From Nostoc punctiforme PCC 73102 (GTDB lineage: Bacteria > Cyanobacteriota > Cyanobacteriia > Cyanobacteriales > Nostocaceae): 32,000 nucleotides of DNA. The position numbers and the translations under genes are program-made. Positions 8,496-27,127 of this stretch are shown here, piece by piece (the stretch's first letter is position 1; every line of letters begins with the position of its first letter). The stretch lies in the NCBI RefSeq assembly GCF_000020025.1, contig NC_010628.1:6810001-6842000 (forward strand), written 5' to 3'. The notes beneath the pieces were generated by a model. The model was given only the letters and a program-made list of their open reading frames with translations. It ran no database searches and was not told the DNA's origin.

Positions 8496-9257
8496 TTAAA
8501 GTTTTAGAAATAAGAGTATCCTAGAAACTGCATATCTAACGCTTCTTTCATCAGTATATTGTGGATTGATTGGGATTTCTTTGAAAGATTTCAGTACAAT
8601 TACAGCCCGATAAAGCTTAGAGTATTTATATTGCTTTTCTTGGATGTCAAAACACAGAATATTTTCTAGTGGATGTTCAATAACTTGATTGCCACGAAGA
8701 CTTTTACGTTCGATAAAGACCTTATCGATACTCTTATAGAAGGTGCAGGTAGTTACAGGTGATGTTGCAAAAAAAGCAGCGATCGCCATGATAATTAATA
8801 TAGATAAACTTAAGAAAAATAGATAGTTTCGCTGATTTTGCTGTACAAATAGCGAAGTTTTATTAGAGTTGATAAAATCGTTTGTTTTCAAGGTAAATTC
8901 TTGATTTTGTTCATAGCTAAGATGGGATAAAAGAGGAAAATCTTGAAATGGAGTCACAATTATAACCTGATAGCTTTTCGACCCTTTGCTGCCAGTCTTT
9001 GTGAGAATGTATGCTTCACTGGGATCAAACATTCTGAGTTTCTCCATCCTTCCCAGCAAATTAAACCGTCTCAATTCACAATTAATTTTGCTTGGCGAGA
9101 GGCGATCGCAATTGAGGCTAACTGAAGCAGACTCAAAAAATAAGCAGTAAATCAAGAAGCTTAAACAGACAGTAAAAATGCACCACCCAATGAACCAATA
9201 TCTGAGTGGCCGATGCTTTAGCTGCAATCTGGTACGGGTTTCCTCTACAATTTTCAT
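8496..9257 (-). CDS. Hypothetical two-TM membrane protein with apparent internal duplication
   Basis: 253 aa, AT-rich codon usage. Two hydrophobic helices (YWFIGWCIFTVCLSFLIYCLFF; YLFFLSLSILIIMAIAAFFA), each followed by an ~85-95 aa soluble segment of similar pattern. Confidence 0.5.
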   Translation of the reverse strand: MKIVEETRTRLQLKHRPLRYWFIGWCIFTVCLSFLIYCLFFESASVSLNCDRLSPSKINCELRRFNLLGRMEKLRMFDPSEAYILTKTGSKGSKSYQVIIVTPFQDFPLLSHLSYEQNQEFTLKTNDFINSNKTSLFVQQNQRNYLFFLSLSILIIMAIAAFFATSPVTTCTFYKSIDKVFIERKSLRGNQVIEHPLENILCFDIQEKQYKYSKLYRAVIVLKSFKEIPINPQYTDERSVRYAVSRILLFLKL

Positions 9258-10283: not shown

Positions 10284-10672
10284 TAATTTCACTAGCTAAC
10301 TTAAGTAAGTGAACGTAAATAATTGTCGTTGGGATAAGGCAATATGCAACAGGAAATAGGCAATAGGTATAAGGATTTTAGCCTAGTTCATTTTTCTTTA
10401 CATAGTTTGGTTTTATTGTGCCAACTTACTTATATTTAGTAAAAGTTGTTAAAGATTTGCGCTCACTTTTAGTTAGGTTAAGACAGCGTAATAACTTACT
10501 ATTCAGGTATTTGATGAAATAAGGGATATGTAAAGAAACAGTCTTTCCAAAAACAGGCGATCGCTTAAGCAACCCCGAAACGCTTCATCCGAAGCGTCCC
10601 GCTTGGTGGGAGAATAAAAACGATAAATGATGCAAACCTGGTGTTGTCCCCAGCCCAAAGGAACTCGTATAA

Positions 10673-11218
10673 ATGTGGAAAAGAATTGTATTAATTTTGC
10701 TATTGGTGTTGAGTTTCAGCCTGAGTAATTCTGATATAGCGGCTGCGGCTGGACTCAAAAGCTTTGTAGACACTAGTGATGGCTATCAGTTTTTATATCC
10801 TAACGGCTGGCTGCAAGTTAAAGTTGCCAACGGGCCAGATGTGGTTTTCCACGATTTGATTGAGGTATCTGAAAACGTTTCTGTTGTCATTAGCCCAGTT
10901 CCAGAAGGCAAAACTTTATCAGAATTGGGAACCCCAACAGAAGTAGGATATAAGTTGGGAAAAGCTGCTCTTGCGCCTCCTGACTCTGGTCGTTCGGCTG
11001 AATTAGTCAATGCCGCACAACGAGAAGTAGACGGTAAAACCTACTACCTTTTAGAGTATGAGGTTAAACTTCCCAATAAACAGCAACGGCATAACATCGC
11101 CAGCGTGGCTGTTAGCCGTGGCAAACTTTTTACCCTCAACGCCTCAATTCCTGAAAAACGCTGGCAGAGAGTTAAAGGAATGATTGATGAGGTTGTAAAT
11201 TCTTTTTCTGTCTATTAA
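10673..11218 (+). CDS. PsbP-like (CyanoP family) protein
   Basis: 181 aa with an N-terminal signal-like segment. FVDTSDGYQFLYPNGW, NVSVVISPV, YYLLEY and LFTLNASIPEKRW are typical PsbP-domain strings. Confidence 0.85.
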   Translation: MWKRIVLILLLVLSFSLSNSDIAAAAGLKSFVDTSDGYQFLYPNGWLQVKVANGPDVVFHDLIEVSENVSVVISPVPEGKTLSELGTPTEVGYKLGKAALAPPDSGRSAELVNAAQREVDGKTYYLLEYEVKLPNKQQRHNIASVAVSRGKLFTLNASIPEKRWQRVKGMIDEVVNSFSVY

Positions 11219-11234
11219 TAGGGAATAGGGAATA

Positions 11235-11295
11235 GGGAATGGGGAATGGGGGATAGAAAAGAAATTTAATCACCAATGCCCCATGCCCCGTACCC
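11235..11295 (+). terminator. Imperfect long hairpin formed by a G-rich heptamer (STRR1-like) array and its C-rich complement
   Basis: GGGAATGGGGAATGGGGGATAG (11235-11256) pairs with CCAATGCCCCATGCCCCGTACCC (11273-11295), about 17 of 22 positions by hand. It sits between the psbP-like stop and the maf start. There is no clear U-tract. Confidence 0.4.
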
Positions 11296-13656: not shown

Positions 13657-13772
13657 AATCCGTGTTTGGTTAAAAGGTTGCTAAAACTCAGGTTATAGCG
13701 CTTCTCGTTTCTATGCAATAGAGTCTGACCTCTATCTAAATCTCTCTTCTAGAAAGCTACGGTATTGCATAA

Positions 13773-13940
13773 GCATTGCAAGTTGATGCATAGGCATTGC
13801 AGGTTGATGCACTAGCATTGCAAGTCCATGCATTAGCATTGCAAGTCCATGCATTAGCATTGCAGGTCGACGCTTTAGCATTGCAGGTCGATGCACTAGC
13901 ATTGCAAGTCGATGCATTGGCATTACAGGTCAAGATGTGC
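13773..13940. repeat. Tandem repeat, 21-bp unit GCATTGCA(A/G)GT(C/T)(G/C)ATGCA(T/C)TA. Seven good copies plus one degenerate copy.
   Basis: Read directly. Units start at 13773, 13794, 13815, 13836, 13857, 13878 and 13899, with a degenerate unit at 13920. The array lies 117-284 nt upstream of the dhaK start codon. Confidence 0.9.
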
Positions 13941-15373: not shown

Positions 15374-16243
15374 ATGAGCAGTAATGATCAAATCAAAATT
15401 CTGTTTCTGGCAGCAGATCCCAGTAATGCTGCACGATTACGCTTGGGGCAAGAGTTGCGTGATATTCGTGAAAAACTGCAACTAGCAAAAGAGCGAGACA
15501 GATTTATTCTAGACTCCCGTGAATCTGTACGTCTGGGAGATATCAGCCAGGCTATATTCGATGTTGAACCGCAGATTGTGCATTTTTCTGGACATGGAAC
15601 CAGTACGGGTGAGCTTTGTTTTGAAGATTTACTAGGAGAATACCAACCTGTACAACCCGATGCTCTAGCAGCGTTATTTGAACTAGTAGCCGATCAAATA
15701 AATTGTGTGGTGTTGAATGCTTGCTATTCCGAAGCTCAAGCAAAAGCGATCGCACAACATATTTCTTTTGTCATTGGCATGAATAAAGAAATTGGAGATC
15801 AAGCCGCGATCGCTTTTGCTGTTGGTTTTTACAAAGCATTGGCAGCAAGGCGGACGATAGATCAAGCTTACAAGTTCGGTTGTGTCGAAATTAGATTGCA
15901 AGGCATTGCAGAACATTTGACTCCAGTTCTGTACACCAAACAAAACTCAGTGTCTCCAGTCTCAGAGGTACAGCAGATAGACTCCAACAAATCAACTGGA
16001 GTAACCAATGCACAGTCAACTAGTTTAAATCTGGGGCAAAGGCAGCGAATTTTACAGGAAATCGAAAGCCTCCAGCAACAGTATGATTTATTAAGTCAGA
16101 AATTGAGCCGCCTACGGTTGGATTTAGTGATAGAATCTGGCACTGTCATCAAGTTTCAGTTAGAAAAGCAGATTGAAAATGCTGAAGCTGAAAGAACACA
16201 ACTTACTCAAAGGATCGAGCAGCTAGAAAATAGCCTGCAATAA
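15374..16243 (+). CDS. Minimal CHAT/caspase-like cysteine protease domain plus a C-terminal helical adaptor module
   Basis: KILFLAADP...IVHFSGHG (His74 candidate, nt 15593-15595) and VVLNACYS (Cys117 candidate, nt 15722-15724) fit the caspase-fold His/Cys dyad arrangement of CHAT domains. Residues ~225-287 are a predicted helical hairpin homologous to the N-terminus of the next ORF. Confidence 0.75.
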   Translation: MSSNDQIKILFLAADPSNAARLRLGQELRDIREKLQLAKERDRFILDSRESVRLGDISQAIFDVEPQIVHFSGHGTSTGELCFEDLLGEYQPVQPDALAALFELVADQINCVVLNACYSEAQAKAIAQHISFVIGMNKEIGDQAAIAFAVGFYKALAARRTIDQAYKFGCVEIRLQGIAEHLTPVLYTKQNSVSPVSEVQQIDSNKSTGVTNAQSTSLNLGQRQRILQEIESLQQQYDLLSQKLSRLRLDLVIESGTVIKFQLEKQIENAEAERTQLTQRIEQLENSLQ

Positions 16244-16283
16244 AAATAGTAGTATCTCAATAGTTGGGTATCAAAACTCATAG

Positions 16284-17264
16284 ATGTCTTCAGTTCGGCA
16301 TTTACAGCAAAAACGGGAAGAACTTCAACAACACTACGATGCGTTTAGCGAGAAGATAAAGTTGTTGCGGAATCAACACGCCATTGAAGCGGGGGCTTCA
16401 GTAGCTTTTCAACTAGACAAAGAAATTGAGCGGGTTGAGAAAGAACGCGATCGCCTCCTGAAGCAGATTCAGATTCTTGAGAGGTCTTGCAAGAGTGAGC
16501 CAATACACAGTGAACTGTTTCGCCTCAACTACATAGCACAGGTACAGTTATTCCGAGAATTTATTACAGAAAAACGTATAGGAGCTTTCTTAGTTCATGG
16601 TTCGCCAGAATATGGTCAAATCTGGTTACTGAAGCGTTTGTTACAGAAAATTCCTGAAAGTACAGTGACTTCCCCAATCCCATTTCATCTCAAACGCAGG
16701 GCACTTAGGAGTGATATTGCAGCCCTATGGAGAGAGTTAGGCCGTCAGATCGGAGTACAAAATTTTTCATCCCATGAGGAGATTGCCAGGAATGTAGTAG
16801 CTCAATTAAAAACCCAACATATCATCCTAGTTTTTCACGATCTCGATTGCATTGATGAAACCTATCTGCACGAATTAATCCGTGATTTTTGGTTGCCCCT
16901 GGTAAACTCAACCCCACAGACAATTTGCTCAAGCAACGAATTTTTTCTACTGATGTTTTTGCTTGACCAAGATGGTTGTGTCAACACTTGGAATCTTGAG
17001 TTTGCAGATCGGTTCGATCTGGTATGGAAACCCCATATTCCCATTAGGCTACCAATGATTGACACTTTATCTGAGCAAGTCTTACTTAACTGGATGGAAA
17101 ATGCAATTGATGTTCTACCAATCCAGATGACTAAAAAAATTGACTATACAGTTCAGGTGATTTTAGAGAAGAGTGAAGGCATTCCAGAGCGTGTGTTTGC
17201 TGAAATTTTTGGTTTGTGTGGCTGTAACTGGCAGGAGGAAGAAACCCGGTGGTTAGAACTTTAG
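16284..17264 (+). CDS. Helical adaptor module plus a degenerate (probably non-hydrolysing) P-loop NTPase-like domain
   Basis: Residues 5-68 align with the C-terminus of the upstream CHAT protein. The Walker A position reads GSPEYGQI instead of G-x4-GK[ST] (nt 16599-16622). A Walker B-like IILVFHDLD is retained. Confidence 0.55.
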   Translation: MSSVRHLQQKREELQQHYDAFSEKIKLLRNQHAIEAGASVAFQLDKEIERVEKERDRLLKQIQILERSCKSEPIHSELFRLNYIAQVQLFREFITEKRIGAFLVHGSPEYGQIWLLKRLLQKIPESTVTSPIPFHLKRRALRSDIAALWRELGRQIGVQNFSSHEEIARNVVAQLKTQHIILVFHDLDCIDETYLHELIRDFWLPLVNSTPQTICSSNEFFLLMFLLDQDGCVNTWNLEFADRFDLVWKPHIPIRLPMIDTLSEQVLLNWMENAIDVLPIQMTKKIDYTVQVILEKSEGIPERVFAEIFGLCGCNWQEEETRWLEL

Positions 17265-18206
17265 ACGGAAAGCGGCTGAAATATATAGGTAAGGTTCAAC
17301 CCCAGCCAGGAGAGCAAGACCCGGAGACGGGTCAAATCTTGTATCCTTACCTGCCGAGTGAGAAATTGGTAGAGGCTGTGAATTTAGCGATCGCCCTCGA
17401 ACGCCCCTTACTATTAAAGGGAGAACCAGGATGCGGCAAGACAAAATTGGCTCGTGCTGTGGCTTATGAGTTGGGTTTACCCTATGAAGCTTGGTACATC
17501 AAATCTACCAGTCGAGCGCGGGATGGTCTTTATACTTATGATGCCGTTGGCAGGTTGCGGGATGCTCAACTTGCTGCCTCCAAAATAGATGAAGAAGCCG
17601 CAATCAAAGCAAAAAATGCTGATGACTACGTAGAGTGGGGACCGTTAGGACGTGCCTTTCGCAATGAGCAGCCAACTGTAGTTTTAATTGATGAAATAGA
17701 TAAAGCTGACATTGACTTTCCTAACGATCTGCTGTTAGAGCTTGATGAGCAAAGGTTTGAAGTCACAGAAGTAAAACAAAACAGTCCGCTCAAGAAAATT
17801 CAGGCGAAAGCAACACCAATTGTTTTGATCACTAGTAACGATGAGAAAGAAAGACTTGCCTGATGCTTTCTTACGTCGTTGTTTATTTCACTATGTTAAA
17901 TTCCCTGAACGTCAGCAATTAATTGATATTGTCAAAACTCGGTTTTCGGTTTCGCCTTTGGAATTGGTGGACGCAATTATTGACCGCTTTTTAGAACTGC
18001 GTGAAGAGATGCGGCGAGATAAGGGCGAAGCTGGTAAAAAGGTCAGTACCAGCGAACTGATGGATTGGGTGCGGATTCTTAATCATCAAGATGATGAAAT
18101 TCTCAGCAAGTTAAAAACAGAACTCTTGTATCCTGGGGTGTTGCTGAAGAGTTGGGATGATTACCGCCGCTATGGTGAACAGATGCGATCGCAGCCAGAA
18201 GTATGA
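17249..18206 (+). pseudogene. MoxR-type AAA+ ATPase (CoxD/AAA_5-like), reading frame interrupted at 17845-17863
   Basis: The first ORF (17249-17863, GTG start) carries Walker A GEPGCGKT, Walker B VVLIDEIDKAD and sensor-1 ITSN. The second ORF (17841-18206, +1 frame) continues with DLPDAFLRRCLFHYVKFP, the arginine-finger region. Together they make one ~317-aa MoxR. The stop overlaps the vWA start (ATGA). Confidence 0.9.
17845..17853 (+). other. Frameshift site in the MoxR gene: apparent 4-nt tandem duplication (GAAA GAAA)
   Basis: As written, GAT GAG AAA GAA AGA CTT GCC TGA reads DEKERLA-stop. Deleting one GAAA gives GAT GAG AAA GAC TTG CCT GAT GCT TTC, reading DEKDLPDAF, which is continuous with the downstream ORF. 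Confidence 0.7.
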
Positions 18207-19327
18207 AAATAGAAGCTCTCCACGAAGAACTACCACTGCTTGAGCTTTTTACACAACTGCGCGAGGCAGGTTTACCCTTGGGTATCGATGAATACCGCCT
18301 TGTTTTGACAGCTTTACAAGAAGGCTTTGGCACGACTGACCAAGAAGCGTTAGCAGAACTGTGCCGTACCTTGTGGGTAAAATCCCAGGATGAAGAACAC
18401 CTCTTCAACTATCACTTTCAACAAGTAATAACAGAACCTTATCCTGTAAGACCTTTTGTCAGGAAGGAAGAAGAGAAAACATCTTCCAGAATGCAAGAAG
18501 CGGTAGAAAGTGACGATAATTATTCACCTGATTTGCTCAATACAACACCGACCACTGTACCCGTTTCATCGGAATTAATGGAAGTACAGGATGAGATGCA
18601 AGTGGCTGAAGCAGTACAGATTACTACTCAAAAAAATGAGGAAATTACTGTTAATCGCTTTACCGAAACCGATGAGTATTTTCCAGTGACGCGGCGACAG
18701 ATGAAACAAAGCTGGCGGCATTTACGCCGAATGGTACGCCAAGGTTTGCCCACAAAGTTAGACATAGAGGCAACTATTGAGCAATTGGTACGGCAGGGGG
18801 TTTTGCTAGAGCCTGTACTGATGCCCAGTCGGGTAAATAGAACTGAACTACTTTTGCTGATTGATCATAAGGGATCGATGGTTCCCTTTCACGCACTATC
18901 CCAGCGATTAGCCCAGACAGCATTACGAGGCGGACGCTTAGGAAAAGCTAGTATTTACTACTTTCACAATTGCCCAACCAAGTATCTTTACCATGACCAG
19001 ACGCGCCAAAAAGCCGAACCTGTCACAGATTTTCTAGCTCAGTTGCGCCCAGACCGTTCCGCTGTATTAATTTTTAGTGATGGGGGTGCAGCACGCGGCG
19101 GTTTTAGTCTGGAACGGCTGGAGTTAACCCAAAAATTTTTAGACCAGTTGAAACAGCGATCGCGTTATATTGCATGGCTGAATCCAATGGCAACAGAGCG
19201 CTGGTTTGGCACAACAGCAGGAGAAATTGTCCGTTTAGTGCCGATGTTTGAAGTTAGCCGACAGGGTTTTGATGGTGCGATCGATGTGTTGCAGGGTCGG
19301 GGGATCAATGCACAATTAAGGTACTGA
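18203..19327 (+). CDS. vWA domain protein, CoxE-like
   Basis: The N-terminal LLELFTQLREAGLPLGIDEY...AL resembles the CoxE N-region. The C-terminal vWA has ELLLLIDHKGSM (MIDAS position) and AVLIFSDGGA. Translationally coupled to the MoxR gene by a 4-nt overlap. Confidence 0.85.
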   Translation: MKIEALHEELPLLELFTQLREAGLPLGIDEYRLVLTALQEGFGTTDQEALAELCRTLWVKSQDEEHLFNYHFQQVITEPYPVRPFVRKEEEKTSSRMQEAVESDDNYSPDLLNTTPTTVPVSSELMEVQDEMQVAEAVQITTQKNEEITVNRFTETDEYFPVTRRQMKQSWRHLRRMVRQGLPTKLDIEATIEQLVRQGVLLEPVLMPSRVNRTELLLLIDHKGSMVPFHALSQRLAQTALRGGRLGKASIYYFHNCPTKYLYHDQTRQKAEPVTDFLAQLRPDRSAVLIFSDGGAARGGFSLERLELTQKFLDQLKQRSRYIAWLNPMATERWFGTTAGEIVRLVPMFEVSRQGFDGAIDVLQGRGINAQLRY

Positions 19328-19367
19328 CTGTAATCAATTTAACTCGGAGTATTTTAAGGGTAGAGGT

Positions 19368-20936
19368 ATGAAGCCAGAAGTTGCTAGTCGTAGAATTGAG
19401 TCTTTTGGTCAACGCTTTGGGGAAACGCACCTCTACCTGGCTTACCATGCTGCTTTTCCGTTAGCCCTCACACCAGATTTGCTTTACCGCTTGTGGGCCA
19501 ATTTTCAACAAGATATTAATCATGAAGTACTAAATATCCCTTGGATGGCTGTGGCTGATTTACTACTTTCTAGCCTTTGTGATGAGGTGGGACATGAACT
19601 CTATGAGATGGATACAGCAGTACGAAATGCTTTGTTGAAAGAGTTGAGGGAGAATCCTCGTTTTGGCGAAAAGCGGATTAATGAATTGTCTGATTTTTTG
19701 CTTACCTATGTACGGCAACAACTTGATAGCTACGACCCGGATATTCGTGATTTTGCTCAGGCTCAGAAGTGGACAGCGTTAGCCTATACGCGACCAAGTG
19801 AGGCAGCGAGGGATTTAGCATCAGTTCTTGCAAGGTTGAAGTTAGAGGAAAAGGCAGAGTGGGTTCGTATGGCATTGCTGGTGGAAACTTTTGCAGAGCC
19901 ATTAGCAGAATTCCAACCTCTACTAATTTATGCTCGTGGGATGGCAAACTTTGTCTGTGGTTATCAAGAACGTGCGACAACAGAGATTACAGGGTTACTA
20001 GCAAACCAGGAGCCTCAATTACAGATTGCAGGAGTAAACCTGCCAATTCCTGAACAGATAGCTAATTCTTTTGAGGAAGTTAGGTCTATTAATCAGTTCT
20101 CAACTAACTTGACTTCTTCACAATTACCCAGTACTGTTCGCATTTTAGCTGTGGATGATGTAGCAGATAATCTCATCCTAATCCAAACAGTTTTAGAAAG
20201 TGAGGGGTATCAGATAGATTTAGCAGCAGATGGTACAACAGCTTTATCATTAGTTAAAGAATCTCCACCTGATTTAATTATCCTAGATGTAAAAATGCCA
20301 GAAATGGACGGTTATGAGGTTACACGCCGCATCCGCAATAACCATAATCTTCCCTACATTCCGATTCTACTCATCTCAGCATATTTTGAAGCTAGTGTTG
20401 TACAAGGCTTAGATATTGGAGCAAACGATTTTATTCGTAAACCTATTGATGTAGATGAGCTACTAGCAAGGGTGCGCTCGTTGTTGCGGCTAAAAAAAAT
20501 GATTGGTAAAAGTGACAAAATCGAGGATACAGTTGAGTCTACTTTCTACAATATACAAAACAATCCTCTTAGCAATCCGCTTTTTATTAGTACTTATAAT
20601 AATGAAATCAAAGATATTAAAGTTAAGGTTAGACTCTACAATCTAGCAAAAGAACTCAATGTAGACAGCCGAGATATAATGACAATATGTAAGTCTCTTG
20701 GAATTGAAGTCAAAAGCCATAGCAGCACTATTTCTAACACAGATGTTCAGCGAATTCGTGCTGCTTTTAGCAACTATTTGAAAGCTTTTGCACAATCTTT
20801 TCCTACTGAACCTATTACAGAAACAGAAACCCTAAAGGATTCACTCATCTCTCAAAATGGATTAAATTGCTCTCTGTTAGGTGAGCTTCTTACAATAAAA
20901 AATGGCAAGAAGCTGATCAAGAAACCGCACGATTAA
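19368..20936 (+). CDS. Multidomain protein: unknown N-terminal helical domain (~aa 1-235), receiver (REC) domain (aa ~257-377), IF2 N-terminal-like domain (aa ~417-467)
   Basis: REC: ILAVDDVADN, DLIILDVKMPEMDG (Asp307), ILLISA, FIRKP. IF2_N-like: VKVRLYNLAKELNVDSRDIMTICKSLGIEVKSHSSTISNTDVQRIRAAF, very close to the extreme N-terminus of cyanobacterial IF-2 as I recall it. The last ~15 residues look like frame-shifted read-through. Confidence 0.85.
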   Translation: MKPEVASRRIESFGQRFGETHLYLAYHAAFPLALTPDLLYRLWANFQQDINHEVLNIPWMAVADLLLSSLCDEVGHELYEMDTAVRNALLKELRENPRFGEKRINELSDFLLTYVRQQLDSYDPDIRDFAQAQKWTALAYTRPSEAARDLASVLARLKLEEKAEWVRMALLVETFAEPLAEFQPLLIYARGMANFVCGYQERATTEITGLLANQEPQLQIAGVNLPIPEQIANSFEEVRSINQFSTNLTSSQLPSTVRILAVDDVADNLILIQTVLESEGYQIDLAADGTTALSLVKESPPDLIILDVKMPEMDGYEVTRRIRNNHNLPYIPILLISAYFEASVVQGLDIGANDFIRKPIDVDELLARVRSLLRLKKMIGKSDKIEDTVESTFYNIQNNPLSNPLFISTYNNEIKDIKVKVRLYNLAKELNVDSRDIMTICKSLGIEVKSHSSTISNTDVQRIRAAFSNYLKAFAQSFPTEPITETETLKDSLISQNGLNCSLLGELLTIKNGKKLIKKPHD

Positions 20937-21343
20937 TTATTTCGATTGCTGCCGCAGAGAGACAAGGTTGGCTTGGTGTAGAGGAGTTGAAAAATTTTTC
21001 CTGTCAAAATTTACGAACAATTGATCAGCTTTGGGTAAAATACAGTAATGGGAATTTTGGTTTTAGTGTGCAGCAAACTATATGGGAAAGTATTGGATTC
21101 GCTAACAACGTTAGAGACTATTCTATGTGGTGGAATTTTGGTAATCTCGTAGGATGGCGTGTAAAAGATAGATGGCTACCCTACGAACGAATACAATTTA
21201 CAGCCCAAGCTCCCAAAGGACATCTGCCATTTTTTAGAGCATGGATAGGAATGAGAAAAACAGGGCTTGTACATTCAATGCATCAAGTCAATCGTTTTCA
21301 TGCATTTATGTATAGGTGCGCGTTTTGTCACCTGACTCAATAA
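20885..21343 (+). pseudogene. GUN4-like domain reading frame, out-of-frame continuation of the preceding ORF (-1 frame). No credible start codon of its own.
   Basis: The frame opens after the TGA at 20882-20884 and reads ASYNKKWQEADQETARLIISIAAAERQGWLGVEELKNFSCQNLRTIDQLWVKYSNGNFGFSVQ...GWRV...APKGHLPF. This is the typical GUN4-like domain with its upstream W-x-EAD-x-ET helix. The track ORF starts only at a TTG (20987), in the middle of the homologous region. Confidence 0.8.
20897..20903 (+). other. A AAA AAT heptamer at the junction of the REC/IF2_N frame and the GUN4 frame
   Basis: In the upstream frame the codons are ATA AAA AAT GGC. The GUN4 frame reads AAT AAA AAA TGG. One extra A, or a -1 slip on A AAA AAT, joins ...LLGELLTIK to WQEADQET... 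Confidence 0.7.
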
Positions 21344-25151: not shown

Positions 25152-25193
25152 AATGACTAATGACTAATGACTAATGACCAATGACTAATGACT
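25152..25193. repeat. Heptamer tandem repeat (AATGACT/AATGACC) x6, STRR-like
   Basis: Read directly. Six consecutive 7-nt units run into the ctaD start codon (ATG at 25188 lies in the last unit). It resembles the TGAC(C/A)AA-type STRR family of heterocystous cyanobacteria. Confidence 0.85.
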
Positions 25194-26936
25194 ATGACAC
25201 AAGCTCAGTTGCAAGAAACTGCCAATATCCCCGCCCTTAGTGAGGAGCCGGGGATCAGAAAATGGCAAGACTACTTTGGCTTCAACACCGACCATAAGGT
25301 GATTGGGATTCAATACCTAGTCACTACGTTCATTTTCTACTGCATTGGTGGGGTGATGGCTGACTTGGTTCGTACAGAACTGCGAACCCCAGAAGTCGAT
25401 TTTGTCACCCCTGAAGTCTACAACAGCTTATTTACGCTGCACGCCACAATTATGATTTTCTTGTGGATCGTGCCAGCTGGTGCGGGTTTTGCTAACTTCC
25501 TCATCCCCTTAATGATTGGGGCAAAGGATATGGCATTTCCGCGCTTGAATGCTGTTGCCTTTTGGATGATTCCCCCTGCGGGTTTATTGTTGATCGCTAG
25601 TTTAGTGGTAGGCGATGCACCAGATGCAGGTTGGACTTCTTACCCTCCCCTGAGCTTGGTAACAGGTCAAGTCGGTGAGGGAATTTGGATTATGAGCGTC
25701 CTTTTACTAGGTACATCATCGATTTTAGGGGCAATCAATTTCTTGGTGACATTGCTCAAGATGCGTATCCCTGGTATGGGGGTTCATCAAATGCCCTTGT
25801 TCTGCTGGGCGATGTTTGCTACCTCGGCGCTGACTTTGGTATCTACGCCAGTGTTAGCAGCAGGTTTGATTCTGCTTGCCTTTGACTTAATTGCCGGTAC
25901 AACATTTTTTAACCCAACTGGCGGTGGTGACCCTGTAGTTTACCAACACATGTTCTGGTTTTACTCCCACCCAGCGGTTTACATTATGATTTTGCCCTTC
26001 TTTGGCGCAATTTCAGAAATTATCCCCGTCCATTCCCGCAAGCCGATTTTTGGCTATAAAGCGATCGCTTATTCGTCTCTTGCCATTAGCTTTCTGGGGC
26101 TAATTGTTTGGGCGCACCACATGTTTACCAGCGGTATCCCCGGTTGGTTGCGGATGTTCTTCATGATCACCACCATGATCATTGCCGTACCCACAGGGAT
26201 TAAAATTTTCAGCTGGTTAGCAACCATGTGGGGTGGAAAAATCCGGCTTAACACTGCCATGCTATTTGCCATCGGCTTTGTTGGCACCTTTGTGATTGGT
26301 GGGATCAGTGGCGTGATGTTGGCAGCAGTGCCCTTTGATATTCACGTTCACGACACCTATTTTGTGGTGGCACACTTGCACTACGTGCTATTTGGTGGTA
26401 GTGTTCTCGGCATTTATGCGGCGATTTACCACTGGTTCCCGAAAATGACGGGACGGATGGTGAACGAATTTTGGGGTAAGGTTCACTTTGCCTTAACAAT
26501 AGTGGGTCTAAACATGACCTTCTTACCAATGCACAAGCTGGGATTAATGGGCATGAACCGCCGTATTGCCCAGTATGACCCCAAATTTACCTTTCTCAAC
26601 GAAATCTGCACTTATGGCGCTTACATACTAGCAGTTTCGACATTCCCCTTCATCATCAATGCGATTTGGAGTTGGTTATACGGCGAGAAAGCTGGTAATA
26701 ATCCTTGGAGAGCATTGACCTTAGAATGGATGACTACATCACCACCTGCGATCGAGAATTTTGATCAAACCCCAGTATTGGCCACAGGCCCCTACGACTA
26801 CGGTTTGGAAAATGCTAATGAAGGTGTACCTTTATCCGATCCCAATCCAGTCTTATCTGCTGGGCCTAATTCAGTTTTACGCGCCGACCCAGACGAACCA
26901 TACCCAACAATTGAGTCTGAGTTAGAAAAGCGTTAA
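25188..26936 (+). CDS. ctaD: Cytochrome c oxidase subunit I
   Basis: 582 aa. WFYSHPAVY, VWAHHMF and HDTYFVVAHLHYVLF are haem-copper oxidase signatures. The start could be 25188 or 25194. Confidence 0.95.
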   Translation: MTMTQAQLQETANIPALSEEPGIRKWQDYFGFNTDHKVIGIQYLVTTFIFYCIGGVMADLVRTELRTPEVDFVTPEVYNSLFTLHATIMIFLWIVPAGAGFANFLIPLMIGAKDMAFPRLNAVAFWMIPPAGLLLIASLVVGDAPDAGWTSYPPLSLVTGQVGEGIWIMSVLLLGTSSILGAINFLVTLLKMRIPGMGVHQMPLFCWAMFATSALTLVSTPVLAAGLILLAFDLIAGTTFFNPTGGGDPVVYQHMFWFYSHPAVYIMILPFFGAISEIIPVHSRKPIFGYKAIAYSSLAISFLGLIVWAHHMFTSGIPGWLRMFFMITTMIIAVPTGIKIFSWLATMWGGKIRLNTAMLFAIGFVGTFVIGGISGVMLAAVPFDIHVHDTYFVVAHLHYVLFGGSVLGIYAAIYHWFPKMTGRMVNEFWGKVHFALTIVGLNMTFLPMHKLGLMGMNRRIAQYDPKFTFLNEICTYGAYILAVSTFPFIINAIWSWLYGEKAGNNPWRALTLEWMTTSPPAIENFDQTPVLATGPYDYGLENANEGVPLSDPNPVLSAGPNSVLRADPDEPYPTIESELEKR

Positions 26937-27127
26937 TCACATTTAGGGATTGGGCATTGGGGATGGGGCATTGGGTATGAGGAATAAGGCAAGGGCTAAG
27001 AGTTAATGCTCATTCATCATTTCTTCCACAGCTTCCCTAGCTTCTCCAGATCCCTGCTCTGTGCTCCCTTGCTTTTTCCCAATCTCCAATCCCTCTCCCT
27101 AACCTGTCCTTTAAATATTTAAAATTC

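What the first reader, a model, noticed from the sequence alone, without database searches (positions are those of the whole stretch)
17831..17870. MoxR ATPase gene split between sensor-1 and the arginine finger by an apparent 4-nt tandem duplication (GAAAGAAA)
Seen: the frame carrying Walker A/B ends ...ITSNDEKERLA-stop at 17863. The +1 frame opens at 17841 and reads (MRKK)DLPDAFLRRCLFHYVKFP. Removing one GAAA from GAGAAAGAAAGAC restores ITSNDEKDLPDAFLRRC, which is what related MoxR/AAA_5 proteins look like at this position as I recall them. A 4-nt direct duplication is not a typical homopolymer sequencing error, so this looks like a genuine slipped-strand mutation. Consequence: the ATPase would lack its Arg finger and lid domain unless the two halves reassemble or a +1 frameshift occurs.
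Basis: partly seen in the sequence, partly recalled or inferred. Interest (0 to 1): 0.7.

Follow-up and report, generated by a model that had tools for sequence, protein, structure and literature searches.

The report
Frameshifted MoxR ATPase gene, Nostoc punctiforme
A four-base tandem duplication has really broken the ATPase gene of a predicted defence/cell-death operon in the model cyanobacterium Nostoc punctiforme PCC 73102. It is a recent, ordinary gene-inactivating mutation, not an assembly error or a programmed recoding signal.

Summary
The Walker A/B frame (17249-17863) ends ...ITSNDEKERLA-stop. The +1 frame (ATG 17841 to 18206) continues DLPDAFLRRC. The break lies in AGAAAGAAAGA (17844-17854).

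119 of the 120 best homologues match an SNDEK|DLPDAFLRR-type motif with no extra residue (116 exactly). All 85 related genomic loci that matched the junction motif, plus one metagenome contig, carry GAGAAAGAC where the window has GAGAAAGAAAGAC.

It is not an assembly error. The two fragments exactly match proteins ACC83830 and ACC83831 of Nostoc punctiforme PCC 73102. They are seen on 98 and 84 contigs. Ten contigs from eight sequencing runs are identical across the junction. The repaired 317-aa protein is absent from a 15-billion-sequence collection.

The gene is the MoxR switch of an iSTAND-MoxR-vWA system with a CHAT effector. The insertion lies in the loop between sensor-1 and the Arg-finger helix, inside a 16-residue stretch that is near-invariant in 68 homologues.

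No recoding signal, ribosome-binding site or ortholog conservation supports frameshifting or a designed split. Few unique substitutions suggest the lesion is recent. Six of 15 close Nostoc lineages carry independent lesions in this system.

Verdict: a real but ordinary pseudogenisation. Low interest.

The parts
15374..16243 (+). First gene of the operon: a CHAT (caspase-like) effector with a C-terminal EAD9-like coiled coil.
   Evidence: Pfam CHAT, 31.7 bits against a cut-off of 24. PADLOC 'chat', E 7e-20. The C-terminal 62 aa are 45% identical to the iSTAND N-terminus, E 2e-15.
16284..17264 (+). iSTAND (inactive STAND) third component with an N-terminal EAD9. Its end overlaps the MoxR start by 16 nt.
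   Evidence: Pfam PF19995 iSTAND, 129 bits, E 2.9e-37. The EAD9 hit is weak (18.6 bits, below the cut-off of 25). Exact match to ACC83829 of N. punctiforme.
17249..17863 (+). MoxR N-terminal fragment ORF (204 aa). It carries Walker A GEPGCGKT (17420-17443), Walker B LIDEID (17684-17701) and sensor-1 Asn (17837-17839). It ends in three out-of-frame codons (E-R-L-A) and TGA at 17861-17863.
   Evidence: Pfam AAA_5, 42.3 bits. Exact match to ACC83830.1 / WP_012411774.1, seen on 98 contigs.
17844..17854 (+). Period-4 run AGAAAGAAAGA holding the 4-nt tandem duplication. The ancestral state is AGAAAGA. The phase of the inserted unit (GAAA, AAAG, AAGA or AGAA) is ambiguous. The insertion falls between codon K200 (17846-17848) and codon D201 (17853-17855, in the +1 frame).
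   Evidence: Five orthologous loci all read GATGAGAAAGACTTGCC in the DNA alignment. 85 of 85 related loci have no extra bases. One metagenome contig is single-copy.
17841..18206 (+). MoxR C-terminal fragment ORF (121 aa) in the +1 frame. Homologous sequence starts at D201 (17853). The Arg-finger residues RR are at 17874-17879. Beta5 and the helical lid domain follow. The ATG at 17841 is a fortuitous out-of-frame ATG inside the codons N-D-E. The stop overlaps the vWA start (ATGA at 18203-18206).
   Evidence: NCBIfam MadB profile positions 191-265 continue directly from the N-fragment's 16-192. Exact match to ACC83831.1 / WP_012411775.1 on 84 contigs. The secondary structure comes from the ortholog model.
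18203..19327 (+). CoxE-type vWA partner of the MoxR ATPase. It is intact.
   Evidence: Pfam VWA_CoxE, 47.8 bits against a cut-off of 26.4. Exact match to ACC83832.
19368..20936 (+). Fourth gene of the operon. It has a conserved N-terminal domain of about 230-270 aa with no Pfam match, followed by a receiver domain and an IF2_N domain.
   Evidence: Pfam Response_reg, 101.7 bits, and IF2_N, 49.4 bits. The N-terminal part is conserved while the C-terminal modules differ in relatives.

Best explanation
The window comes from the Nostoc punctiforme PCC 73102 (ATCC 29133) chromosome. The MoxR-class AAA+ ATPase gene of an iSTAND-MoxR-vWA ternary conflict system gained a 4-nt tandem duplication (AGAAAGA to AGAAAGAAAGA). 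Replication slippage between two AGA triplets 4 nt apart most likely caused it.

The +4 insertion shifts the frame after Lys200 and gives a stop 15 nt later. The main product is a 204-aa fragment. It has Walker A, Walker B and sensor-1 but lacks the Arg-finger helix, strand beta5 and the whole lid domain. It should therefore be unable to form hydrolysis-competent hexamer interfaces. The ATPase switch of the system is thus inactivated.

Translational coupling into the downstream vWA gene (ATGA overlap) is probably weakened too.

The mutation is fixed in the sequenced strain lineage and is evolutionarily recent.

Shown by tool results: the insertion, its uniqueness to this strain, its reproducibility across runs, and its position in the fold. 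Inferred: the slippage mechanism, the loss of function, the polarity on vWA, and the recency.
For: Insertion and uniqueness:
- The sequence and frames are as described.
- 119 of 120 homologues match the junction motif with no extra residue; 116 read SNDEK|DLPDAFLRR exactly.
- T195-C210 is near-invariant in 68 homologues: 15 of 16 positions are invariant and D204 is at least 90% conserved.
- All related DNA loci are single-copy at the site: 5 loci in the alignment, 85 of 85 motif-matching loci, and 1 metagenome contig.
- Only one other locus among the 86 fetched is frame-broken, and at a different site.

Real, not an artefact:
- Exact protein look-up identifies ACC83830 and ACC83831 of N. punctiforme PCC 73102 on 98 and 84 contigs. 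The repaired 317-aa sequence is absent.
- Ten Logan contigs from eight runs (four accession groups: SRR8435xxx, SRR6394273, SRR21010xxx, SRR12750585) are identical across the junction and all carry the duplication.
- All 25 other large ORFs scanned in the window are full-length: 24 match a Pfam family end-to-end or nearly so, and one (8496-9257) has no Pfam match. The assembly is not error-prone.

Structural position:
- The ortholog model has pLDDT 86.6. It places the site in the loop 197-203, between beta4/sensor-1 and helix 204-209.
- The fold is closest to NorQ and CbbQ.

Recency:
- The window's MoxR has 4 unique synonymous codons and 1 unique amino-acid change, with no unique amino-acid change downstream of the shift.
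- The other frameshifted ortholog has 1 unique synonymous and 6 unique non-synonymous changes.

Context:
- Six of 15 close lineages carry independent lesions in this system. This fits the turnover typical of conflict systems.
Against: - No functional data exist. The 121-aa C-terminal ORF begins with an ATG 22 nt upstream of the premature stop, so termination-reinitiation could produce it. Fragment complementation or low-level +1 slippage at AAA-G cannot be excluded from sequence alone.
- The C-terminal ORF shows no decay. That fits recency, but it also fits continued selection.
- All runs that carry the allele probably descend from one culture-collection strain. The data do not tell whether the mutation arose in nature or in culture.
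- Consensus assemblies would hide a minority revertant allele.
Confidence: 0.85

Rival explanations
1. The gene is split but still functional. The two fragments are both made, the second by reinitiation at ATG 17841 after termination at 17863. They reassemble into an active AAA+ module. Alternatively, occasional +1 ribosomal slippage (tRNA-Lys moving from AAA to AAG at 17846-17849) yields some full-length protein with one extra residue.
For: - The ATG at 17841 lies 22 nt upstream of the premature stop.
- The downstream ORF is undecayed.
- AAA-G is in principle re-pairable by tRNA-Lys(UUU). This rests on general knowledge of frameshifting, not on a test here.
Against: - No ortholog has this arrangement: 0 of 85 loci.
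- There is no purine-rich Shine-Dalgarno element in the 20 nt before 17841.
- There is no significant RNA structure downstream (z = -0.9).
- There is no prfB-like CUU-UGA shifty stop.
- Any slippage product adds a residue inside a 16-residue near-invariant block.
- The cut separates beta4 from alpha4 and beta5 within the core beta-sheet. That is an unfavourable place for spontaneous complementation.
Confidence: 0.08
2. The site is a phase-variable (contingency) switch. The GAAA repeat expands and contracts reversibly to turn the conflict system off and on.
For: - The lesion is a gain of one short-repeat unit.
- With 2.75 units, the tract is more slippage-prone than the ancestral 1.75 units.
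- Independent inactivations in relatives suggest selection sometimes favours the OFF state.
Against: - The tract is far shorter than known contingency repeats.
- All ten contigs from eight runs, and all 84-98 contigs carrying the fragments, show the OFF state. The ON protein is absent from the collection.
- Relatives are inactivated by unrelated lesions (1-nt insertion, nonsense, kilobase deletions), not at this repeat.
- All 85 other loci have the single-unit state.
Confidence: 0.03
3. The duplication is a sequencing or assembly error in the reference genome.
For: Low-complexity purine runs can be miscalled on some platforms.
Against: - Independent de novo assemblies of at least eight sequencing runs reproduce the duplication at 100% identity.
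- A 4-nt insertion is not a homopolymer-length error.
- The other genes in the window are intact.
Confidence: 0.02

Closest known systems
iSTAND-type MoxR-vWA ternary conflict systems (Kaur, Burroughs, Iyer & Aravind 2020, eLife 9:e52696; PMC7159879)
   Same: - The gene order is iSTAND, MoxR, then a CoxE-type vWA.
- The iSTAND carries an N-terminal effector-associated domain (EAD9-like).
- The adjacent effector (CHAT, caspase-like) carries the matching EAD.
- The host is a multicellular cyanobacterium.
- The effector and C-terminal modules vary among relatives, as the paper describes.
   Different: In this strain the MoxR gene is interrupted by a +4 frameshift, so the system is probably non-functional. 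A fourth conserved gene follows vWA (unknown N-terminal domain plus receiver plus IF2_N). I did not find it discussed in the passages read. The system itself has only been predicted computationally, not tested.
NorQ/NorD and CbbQ/CbbO (MoxR AAA+ ATPases with vWA partners; PDB 9qh4, 9qh6, 6l1q, 5c3c)
   Same: They are the best structural matches to the ortholog model (Foldseek E 2e-13 to 3e-11, TM-score 0.6-0.78). A vWA-domain protein is encoded next to the ATPase.
   Different: Sequence identity is only 17-20%. Those proteins are metal-centre or Rubisco remodelling chaperones, not conflict-system switches. The protein here is about 60 residues longer, including an N-terminal extension.
Slipped-strand frameshift pseudogenes in bacterial defence or conflict loci
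   Same: A short tandem duplication at pre-existing microhomology causes a frameshift. It is strain-specific. Different lesions recur in sister lineages.
   Different: Nothing distinguishes it from this class. It is an ordinary example.
Programmed +1 frameshifting (prfB / RF2 type)
   Same: Two overlapping ORFs in the 0 and +1 frames together encode one conserved protein.
   Different: There is no conservation of the arrangement in orthologues, no shifty stop (CUU UGA), no upstream SD-like stimulator and no structured RNA.

Membership tests
MoxR-class AAA+ ATPase | P-loop Walker A (GxxGxGK[ST]) and Walker B (hhhhDE) | tested here: met
   GEPGCGKT at residues 58-65 and VVLIDEID at 144-151 in the N-fragment. 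These residues are invariant in 68 homologues.
MoxR-class AAA+ ATPase | Profile match to the AAA_5 / MoxR-type ATPase domain above the curated threshold | tested here: met
   PF07728 AAA_5 scores 43.1 bits (cut-off 22) for the repaired protein, covering profile positions 1-138 of 139. The N-fragment alone reaches only position 123.
MoxR-class AAA+ ATPase | Fold closest to solved MoxR ATPases | tested here: met
   The ortholog model (pLDDT 86.6) has NorQ and CbbQ as top PDB hits, ahead of Lon, dynein, Vps4 and RuvB. The model is of the 94%-identical ortholog P0002, not the window protein itself.
MoxR-class AAA+ ATPase | Sensor-1, Arg finger and lid (sensor-2) domain on one polypeptide | tested here: not met
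   In this strain the chain ends 7 residues after sensor-1 N197. The Arg-finger helix, beta5 and lid are in a separate +1 ORF. The ancestral gene met this feature. The present locus is a disrupted member.
MoxR-class AAA+ ATPase | ATP hydrolysis and hexamer formation | not testable with these tools
   This needs biochemistry.
iSTAND ternary MoxR-vWA system (Kaur et al. 2020) | Adjacent genes for MoxR, a vWA protein and an inactive-STAND protein | tested here: met
   PF19995 iSTAND scores 129 bits. The MoxR gene is present but split. PF05762 VWA_CoxE scores 47.8 bits. The genes overlap or lie close together on one strand. There are no promoter-like sites on the + strand between 15374 and 20300, and no terminator-like sites anywhere in the scanned region. 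The definition comes from PMC7159879.
iSTAND ternary MoxR-vWA system (Kaur et al. 2020) | The EAD on the core component is matched by the same EAD on a neighbouring effector | tested here: met
   The iSTAND N-terminus and the CHAT C-terminus are 45% identical over 62 aa, E 2e-15. The Pfam EAD9 hit on iSTAND is below its cut-off (18.6 against 25), so naming this domain EAD9 is tentative.
iSTAND ternary MoxR-vWA system (Kaur et al. 2020) | A role in biological conflict (anti-phage or programmed cell death) | not testable with these tools
   This is predicted only. PADLOC has no model for iSTAND or this vWA, and gives only a 'chat' hit and weak ATPase hits.
MADS MadB/MadC (NCBIfam NF047784 / NF047783) | Score above the equivalog cut-off | tested here: not met
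   MadB scores 89.6 bits against a cut-off of 475. MadC scores 21.3 against 600. The relationship is distant, not membership.
Programmed ribosomal frameshift site | The two-frame arrangement is conserved in orthologues | tested here: not met
   0 of 85 related loci carry the insertion. 119 of 120 homologous proteins match the junction motif uninterrupted; the remaining one (P0016) did not match the search pattern and was not inspected.
Programmed ribosomal frameshift site | A slippery or shifty motif with stimulators (SD-like element, stop or rare codon, RNA structure) | tested here: not met
   There is no SD-like run upstream and no CUU-UGA. Downstream folding has z = -0.9.
Phase-variable simple-sequence contingency locus | Repeat-number heterogeneity among samples of one strain | tested here: not met
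   Ten contigs from eight runs are all identical at the site. The repaired protein is absent from the collection. Minority alleles within read sets could not be examined.

The most novel reading that the evidence does not exclude
Loss of the MoxR switch may be favoured by selection rather than neutral. The iSTAND-MoxR-vWA-CHAT system may be costly or autotoxic in symbiotic or laboratory-grown Nostoc, so lineages repeatedly disable it. Six of 15 close lineages carry independent lesions, four of them in MoxR. In PCC 73102 the 4-nt repeat gain could be a domestication mutation that is revertible by slippage. If so, the standard model strain would be a natural 'off' mutant of a predicted bacterial caspase-linked death system. 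Repairing four bases would then give a direct test of that system's function.
Probability: 0.12. Interest if true: 0.5.

Novelty: new member of a known kind. Interest (0 to 1): 0.2.

Why it matters
The main value is practical. Nostoc punctiforme PCC 73102 is a genetically tractable model for multicellular cyanobacteria and plant symbiosis. The iSTAND-MoxR-vWA systems predicted by Kaur et al. (2020) have not been tested experimentally.

Anyone using this strain to study that system should know that its ATPase gene is frameshifted. The public records list the two halves as separate proteins ('AAA family ATPase' and 'hypothetical protein'). The clean 4-nt lesion offers a simple isogenic repair experiment.

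The pattern of independent lesions in sister Nostoc genomes is a small example of the rapid turnover of conflict systems. Beyond that, this is an ordinary pseudogene.

Tried and rejected
1. One-base repair (EKEDLP or EKKDLP). Rejected because no homologue has an extra residue at the junction.

2. Assembly error. Rejected by the independent run assemblies and by the intact neighbouring genes.

3. Programmed frameshift. Looked for an SD-like element, a shifty stop and a downstream RNA structure. None was found, and the arrangement is not conserved.

4. Quasi-palindrome templated insertion from the nearby inverted repeat (AAGAAAG at 17847-17853 against CTTTCTT at 17867-17873). The duplication lengthens that complementarity from 6 to 7 nt but does not perfect the palindrome. 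Simple slippage at the AGA...AGA microhomology is more parsimonious. This alternative is not excluded.

5. Statistical significance of the tandem 4-mer alone. It is not significant.

6. Search for the source genome in the GTDB-representative genome collection. It was not among the 80 loci returned; the closest was about 94% nt identity. The source was found instead by exact protein look-up.

7. Literature and supplement searches for the accessions, and for 'Nostoc punctiforme' plus 'iSTAND'. No papers were found.

8. Sequence search of the PDB. It gave only P-loop-level matches to midasin and p97. The fold search was needed to place the protein with NorQ and CbbQ.

9. Metagenome scan for either allele. 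One contig was found, with the ancestral state.

Full report
**Observation**

- An ORF from GTG 17249 to TGA 17861-17863 encodes 204 aa. It carries Walker A (GEPGCGKT) and Walker B (VVLIDEID) and ends ...PIVLITSNDEKERLA.
- The +1 frame is open from ATG 17841 to 18206 (121 aa) and reads MRKKDLPDAFLRRCLFHYVKFPERQQ....
- The junction is GAGAAAGAAAGAC, starting at 17843. The period-4 run is AGAAAGAAAGA (17844-17854).

Removing four bases gives ITSNDEKDLPDAFLRRC. Removing one base would also restore the frame but would leave an extra residue.

Tandem 4-mers of this size are common by chance. The window has 99 runs of at least 8 nt against about 93 in shuffles. The repeat alone proves nothing.

**Which repair is right**

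A search with the repaired protein found thousands of full-length homologues of about 310-320 aa.
- Among the best 120, 119 match an SNDEK|DLPDAFLRR-type junction motif with no extra residue, and 116 read it exactly.
- In an alignment of 68 homologues, T195-C210 is near-invariant. Fifteen of 16 positions are invariant and D204 is at least 90% conserved.
- A DNA alignment with five orthologous loci shows GATGAGAAAGACTTGCC in all of them. The window has four extra bases.
- A survey of 80 species-representative genomes plus the other fetched loci found the single-copy state in 85 of 85 loci that matched the junction motif.
- The single matching metagenome contig, 94% identical, is also single-copy.

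The lesion is therefore a 4-nt insertion that forms a perfect tandem duplication. The ancestral AGAAAGA already had two AGA triplets 4 nt apart. That is the microhomology replication slippage needs. The slippage mechanism is an inference.

**Real or artefact**

Exact-sequence look-up identifies the source as Nostoc punctiforme PCC 73102 (ATCC 29133), whose chromosome is 8,234,322 bp.
- The 204-aa fragment is ACC83830.1 / WP_012411774.1 and is seen on 98 contigs.
- The 121-aa fragment is ACC83831.1 / WP_012411775.1 and is seen on 84 contigs.
- The neighbours are ACC83829 (iSTAND) and ACC83832 (vWA).
- The repaired 317-aa sequence is not present anywhere in the roughly 15-billion-sequence collection.

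Ten contigs assembled independently from eight sequencing runs in four accession groups carry the 204 + 121 aa arrangement. They are 100% identical to the window across the junction, and each reads GAGAAAGAAAGAC.

The other 25 large ORFs scanned in the window are full-length. Twenty-four have Pfam matches running end-to-end or nearly so, and one (8496-9257) has no Pfam match. The assembly is not frameshift-prone. The mutation is real and fixed in this strain lineage.

**What the gene is**

The operon (15374-20936, + strand) contains, in order:
- a CHAT caspase-like protein;
- an iSTAND protein (PF19995, 129 bits);
- the split MoxR gene;
- a CoxE-type vWA protein;
- a protein with an unassigned N-terminal domain followed by a receiver and an IF2_N domain.

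The CHAT C-terminus and the iSTAND N-terminus share a 62-aa coiled-coil domain (45% identity, E 2e-15). This is the effector-associated-domain pairing described by Kaur et al. 2020. That paper defines the iSTAND class of MoxR-vWA ternary conflict systems and notes their concentration in cyanobacteria (PMC7159879).

An AlphaFold model of the 94%-identical ortholog (pLDDT 86.6) is closest to the solved MoxR ATPases NorQ and CbbQ, both of which work with vWA partners. The NCBIfam MadB/MadC and PADLOC hits are far below their cut-offs.

**Where the break falls and what it does**

In the model:
- strand beta4 is 191-196 and N197 is sensor-1;
- 197-203 (NDEKDLP) is a loop;
- 204-209 (DAFLRR) is the helix with the conserved arginines;
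- 211-215 is beta5;
- 220-317 is the helical lid.

The insertion lies between K200 and D201. The 204-aa product keeps the nucleotide-binding motifs but lacks the Arg finger, one core strand and the lid. From established AAA+ mechanism, inter-subunit hydrolysis needs the Arg finger and the lid contributes sensor-2. Such a fragment should be inactive. This is an inference.

The intact gene's stop overlaps the vWA start (ATGA at 18203-18206). Premature termination 340 nt upstream may therefore also reduce vWA translation. This too is an inference.

**Rival readings**

- Programmed +1 frameshifting or a designed split. No ortholog shares the arrangement. There is no SD-like element before ATG 17841 and no shifty stop. 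The downstream RNA is unstructured (z = -0.9). Any slippage product would add a residue inside the near-invariant block.
- Phase variation. The tract has only 2.75 units. Every sampled contig is in the OFF state. Relatives are inactivated by unrelated lesions.
- What cannot be excluded without experiments: low-level reinitiation at 17841, and minority revertants within populations.

**Age**

The window's MoxR has four unique synonymous codons and one unique amino-acid change (A126D). None of the amino-acid changes lies downstream of the shift. This is no worse than the intact orthologues.

The other frameshifted ortholog (Nostoc sp. P12567) has one unique synonymous and six unique non-synonymous changes. 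The PCC 73102 lesion therefore looks recent, although the counts are small. The data cannot say whether it arose in nature or in culture.

**Wider pattern**

Six of the 15 closest lineages carry independent damage to this system:
- PCC 73102: the +4 nt duplication in MoxR.
- Nostoc P12567: a 1-nt insertion in MoxR (GAACTGC[T]GTGAA).
- An uncultured Nostoc (ERZ22924615): a nonsense change plus a 1-nt deletion in MoxR, with vWA and the fourth gene deleted.
- Peltigera membranacea cyanobiont 232: a 1.37-kb deletion joining MoxR codon 178 to vWA codon 315.
- Nostoc P12559: internal deletions of iSTAND and vWA.
- Nostoc LPT: a nonsense codon in iSTAND.

Several of these are metagenome-assembled genomes, so some caution is due. 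Deletions and nonsense codons are nonetheless unlikely to be artefacts. The pattern is the usual gain-and-loss dynamics of conflict systems. It leaves open, at low probability, that loss is selected.

**Verdict**

The finding is an ordinary, recent, strain-specific frameshift pseudogene in a known kind of system. It is already deposited as two separate CDSs but is not, as far as I could find, described as a disrupted gene.

Interest is low (0.2). The practical value is for those who would use N. punctiforme to test iSTAND-MoxR-vWA systems.

Noticed in passing
window 13766-13931 (intergenic, between the Dak1 gene and the Fer4_13 gene): This is a 21-bp tandem repeat array of about 7.9 copies. 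It is one unit shorter (window 13813-13833 missing) in contigs from runs SRR8435170 and SRR8435120. All other bases in those contigs are identical to the window. This suggests copy-number variation between sub-lines of the strain, or collapse of the repeat during assembly.
   Followed up: partly
L002/L029 6001-6955; L097 2965-4039; L098 3001-3722; L010 3468-5443; L011 3036-4016: Sister Nostoc lineages carry independent, different lesions in the same system. These are a 1-nt insertion in MoxR, a nonsense plus 1-nt deletion in MoxR with loss of vWA and the fourth gene, a 1.37-kb MoxR-vWA deletion, internal iSTAND and vWA deletions, and an iSTAND nonsense codon.
   Followed up: yes
window 19368-20936 (+): The fourth operon gene has an N-terminal region of about 230-270 aa with no Pfam, NCBIfam or PADLOC match. 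That region is conserved among relatives. Its C-terminal part is swapped between lineages: receiver plus IF2_N here, CHAT plus AAA_35 in L004, and AAA_35 in L098. It looks like an adaptor domain with variable output modules.
   Followed up: partly
window 17624-17626 (codon 126 of MoxR): A126D is the only amino-acid change unique to this strain's MoxR among 13 close orthologues. All eight other sequences in alignment A1 have Ala at this position.
   Followed up: partly
window 20987-21343 (+): A short ORF (118 aa from a TTG start; called as 72 aa in the run assemblies) matches only positions 51-133 of the 141-position GUN4 profile. It lies between the conflict operon and ctaB. It may be a truncated or stand-alone GUN4-like domain.
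   Followed up: no
window 10337-10367, 11217-11256, 25152-25198, 26949-26975: Heptamer tandem repeats occur in intergenic regions: AGGCAAT, AATAGGG, AATGACT and ATTGGGC, at 4-7 copies each. They resemble the short tandemly repeated repetitive (STRR) sequences of heterocystous cyanobacteria. The window also has 33 copies of the HIP1 palindrome GCGATCGC.
   Followed up: no
window 13351 (Dak1 gene, - strand): There is a single-base difference between the window and the contig from run SRR8435120. All other aligned bases are identical. It is a sub-line SNP or an assembly error.
   Followed up: no
window 17835-17881: There is an imperfect inverted repeat around the lesion. GTAACGATG...AAGAAAG pairs with CTTTCTT...CGTCGTTG in the RNA fold. 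The duplication lengthens the inner complementarity from 6 to 7 nt. Template switching across this quasi-palindrome is an alternative mutational route to simple slippage.
   Followed up: partly
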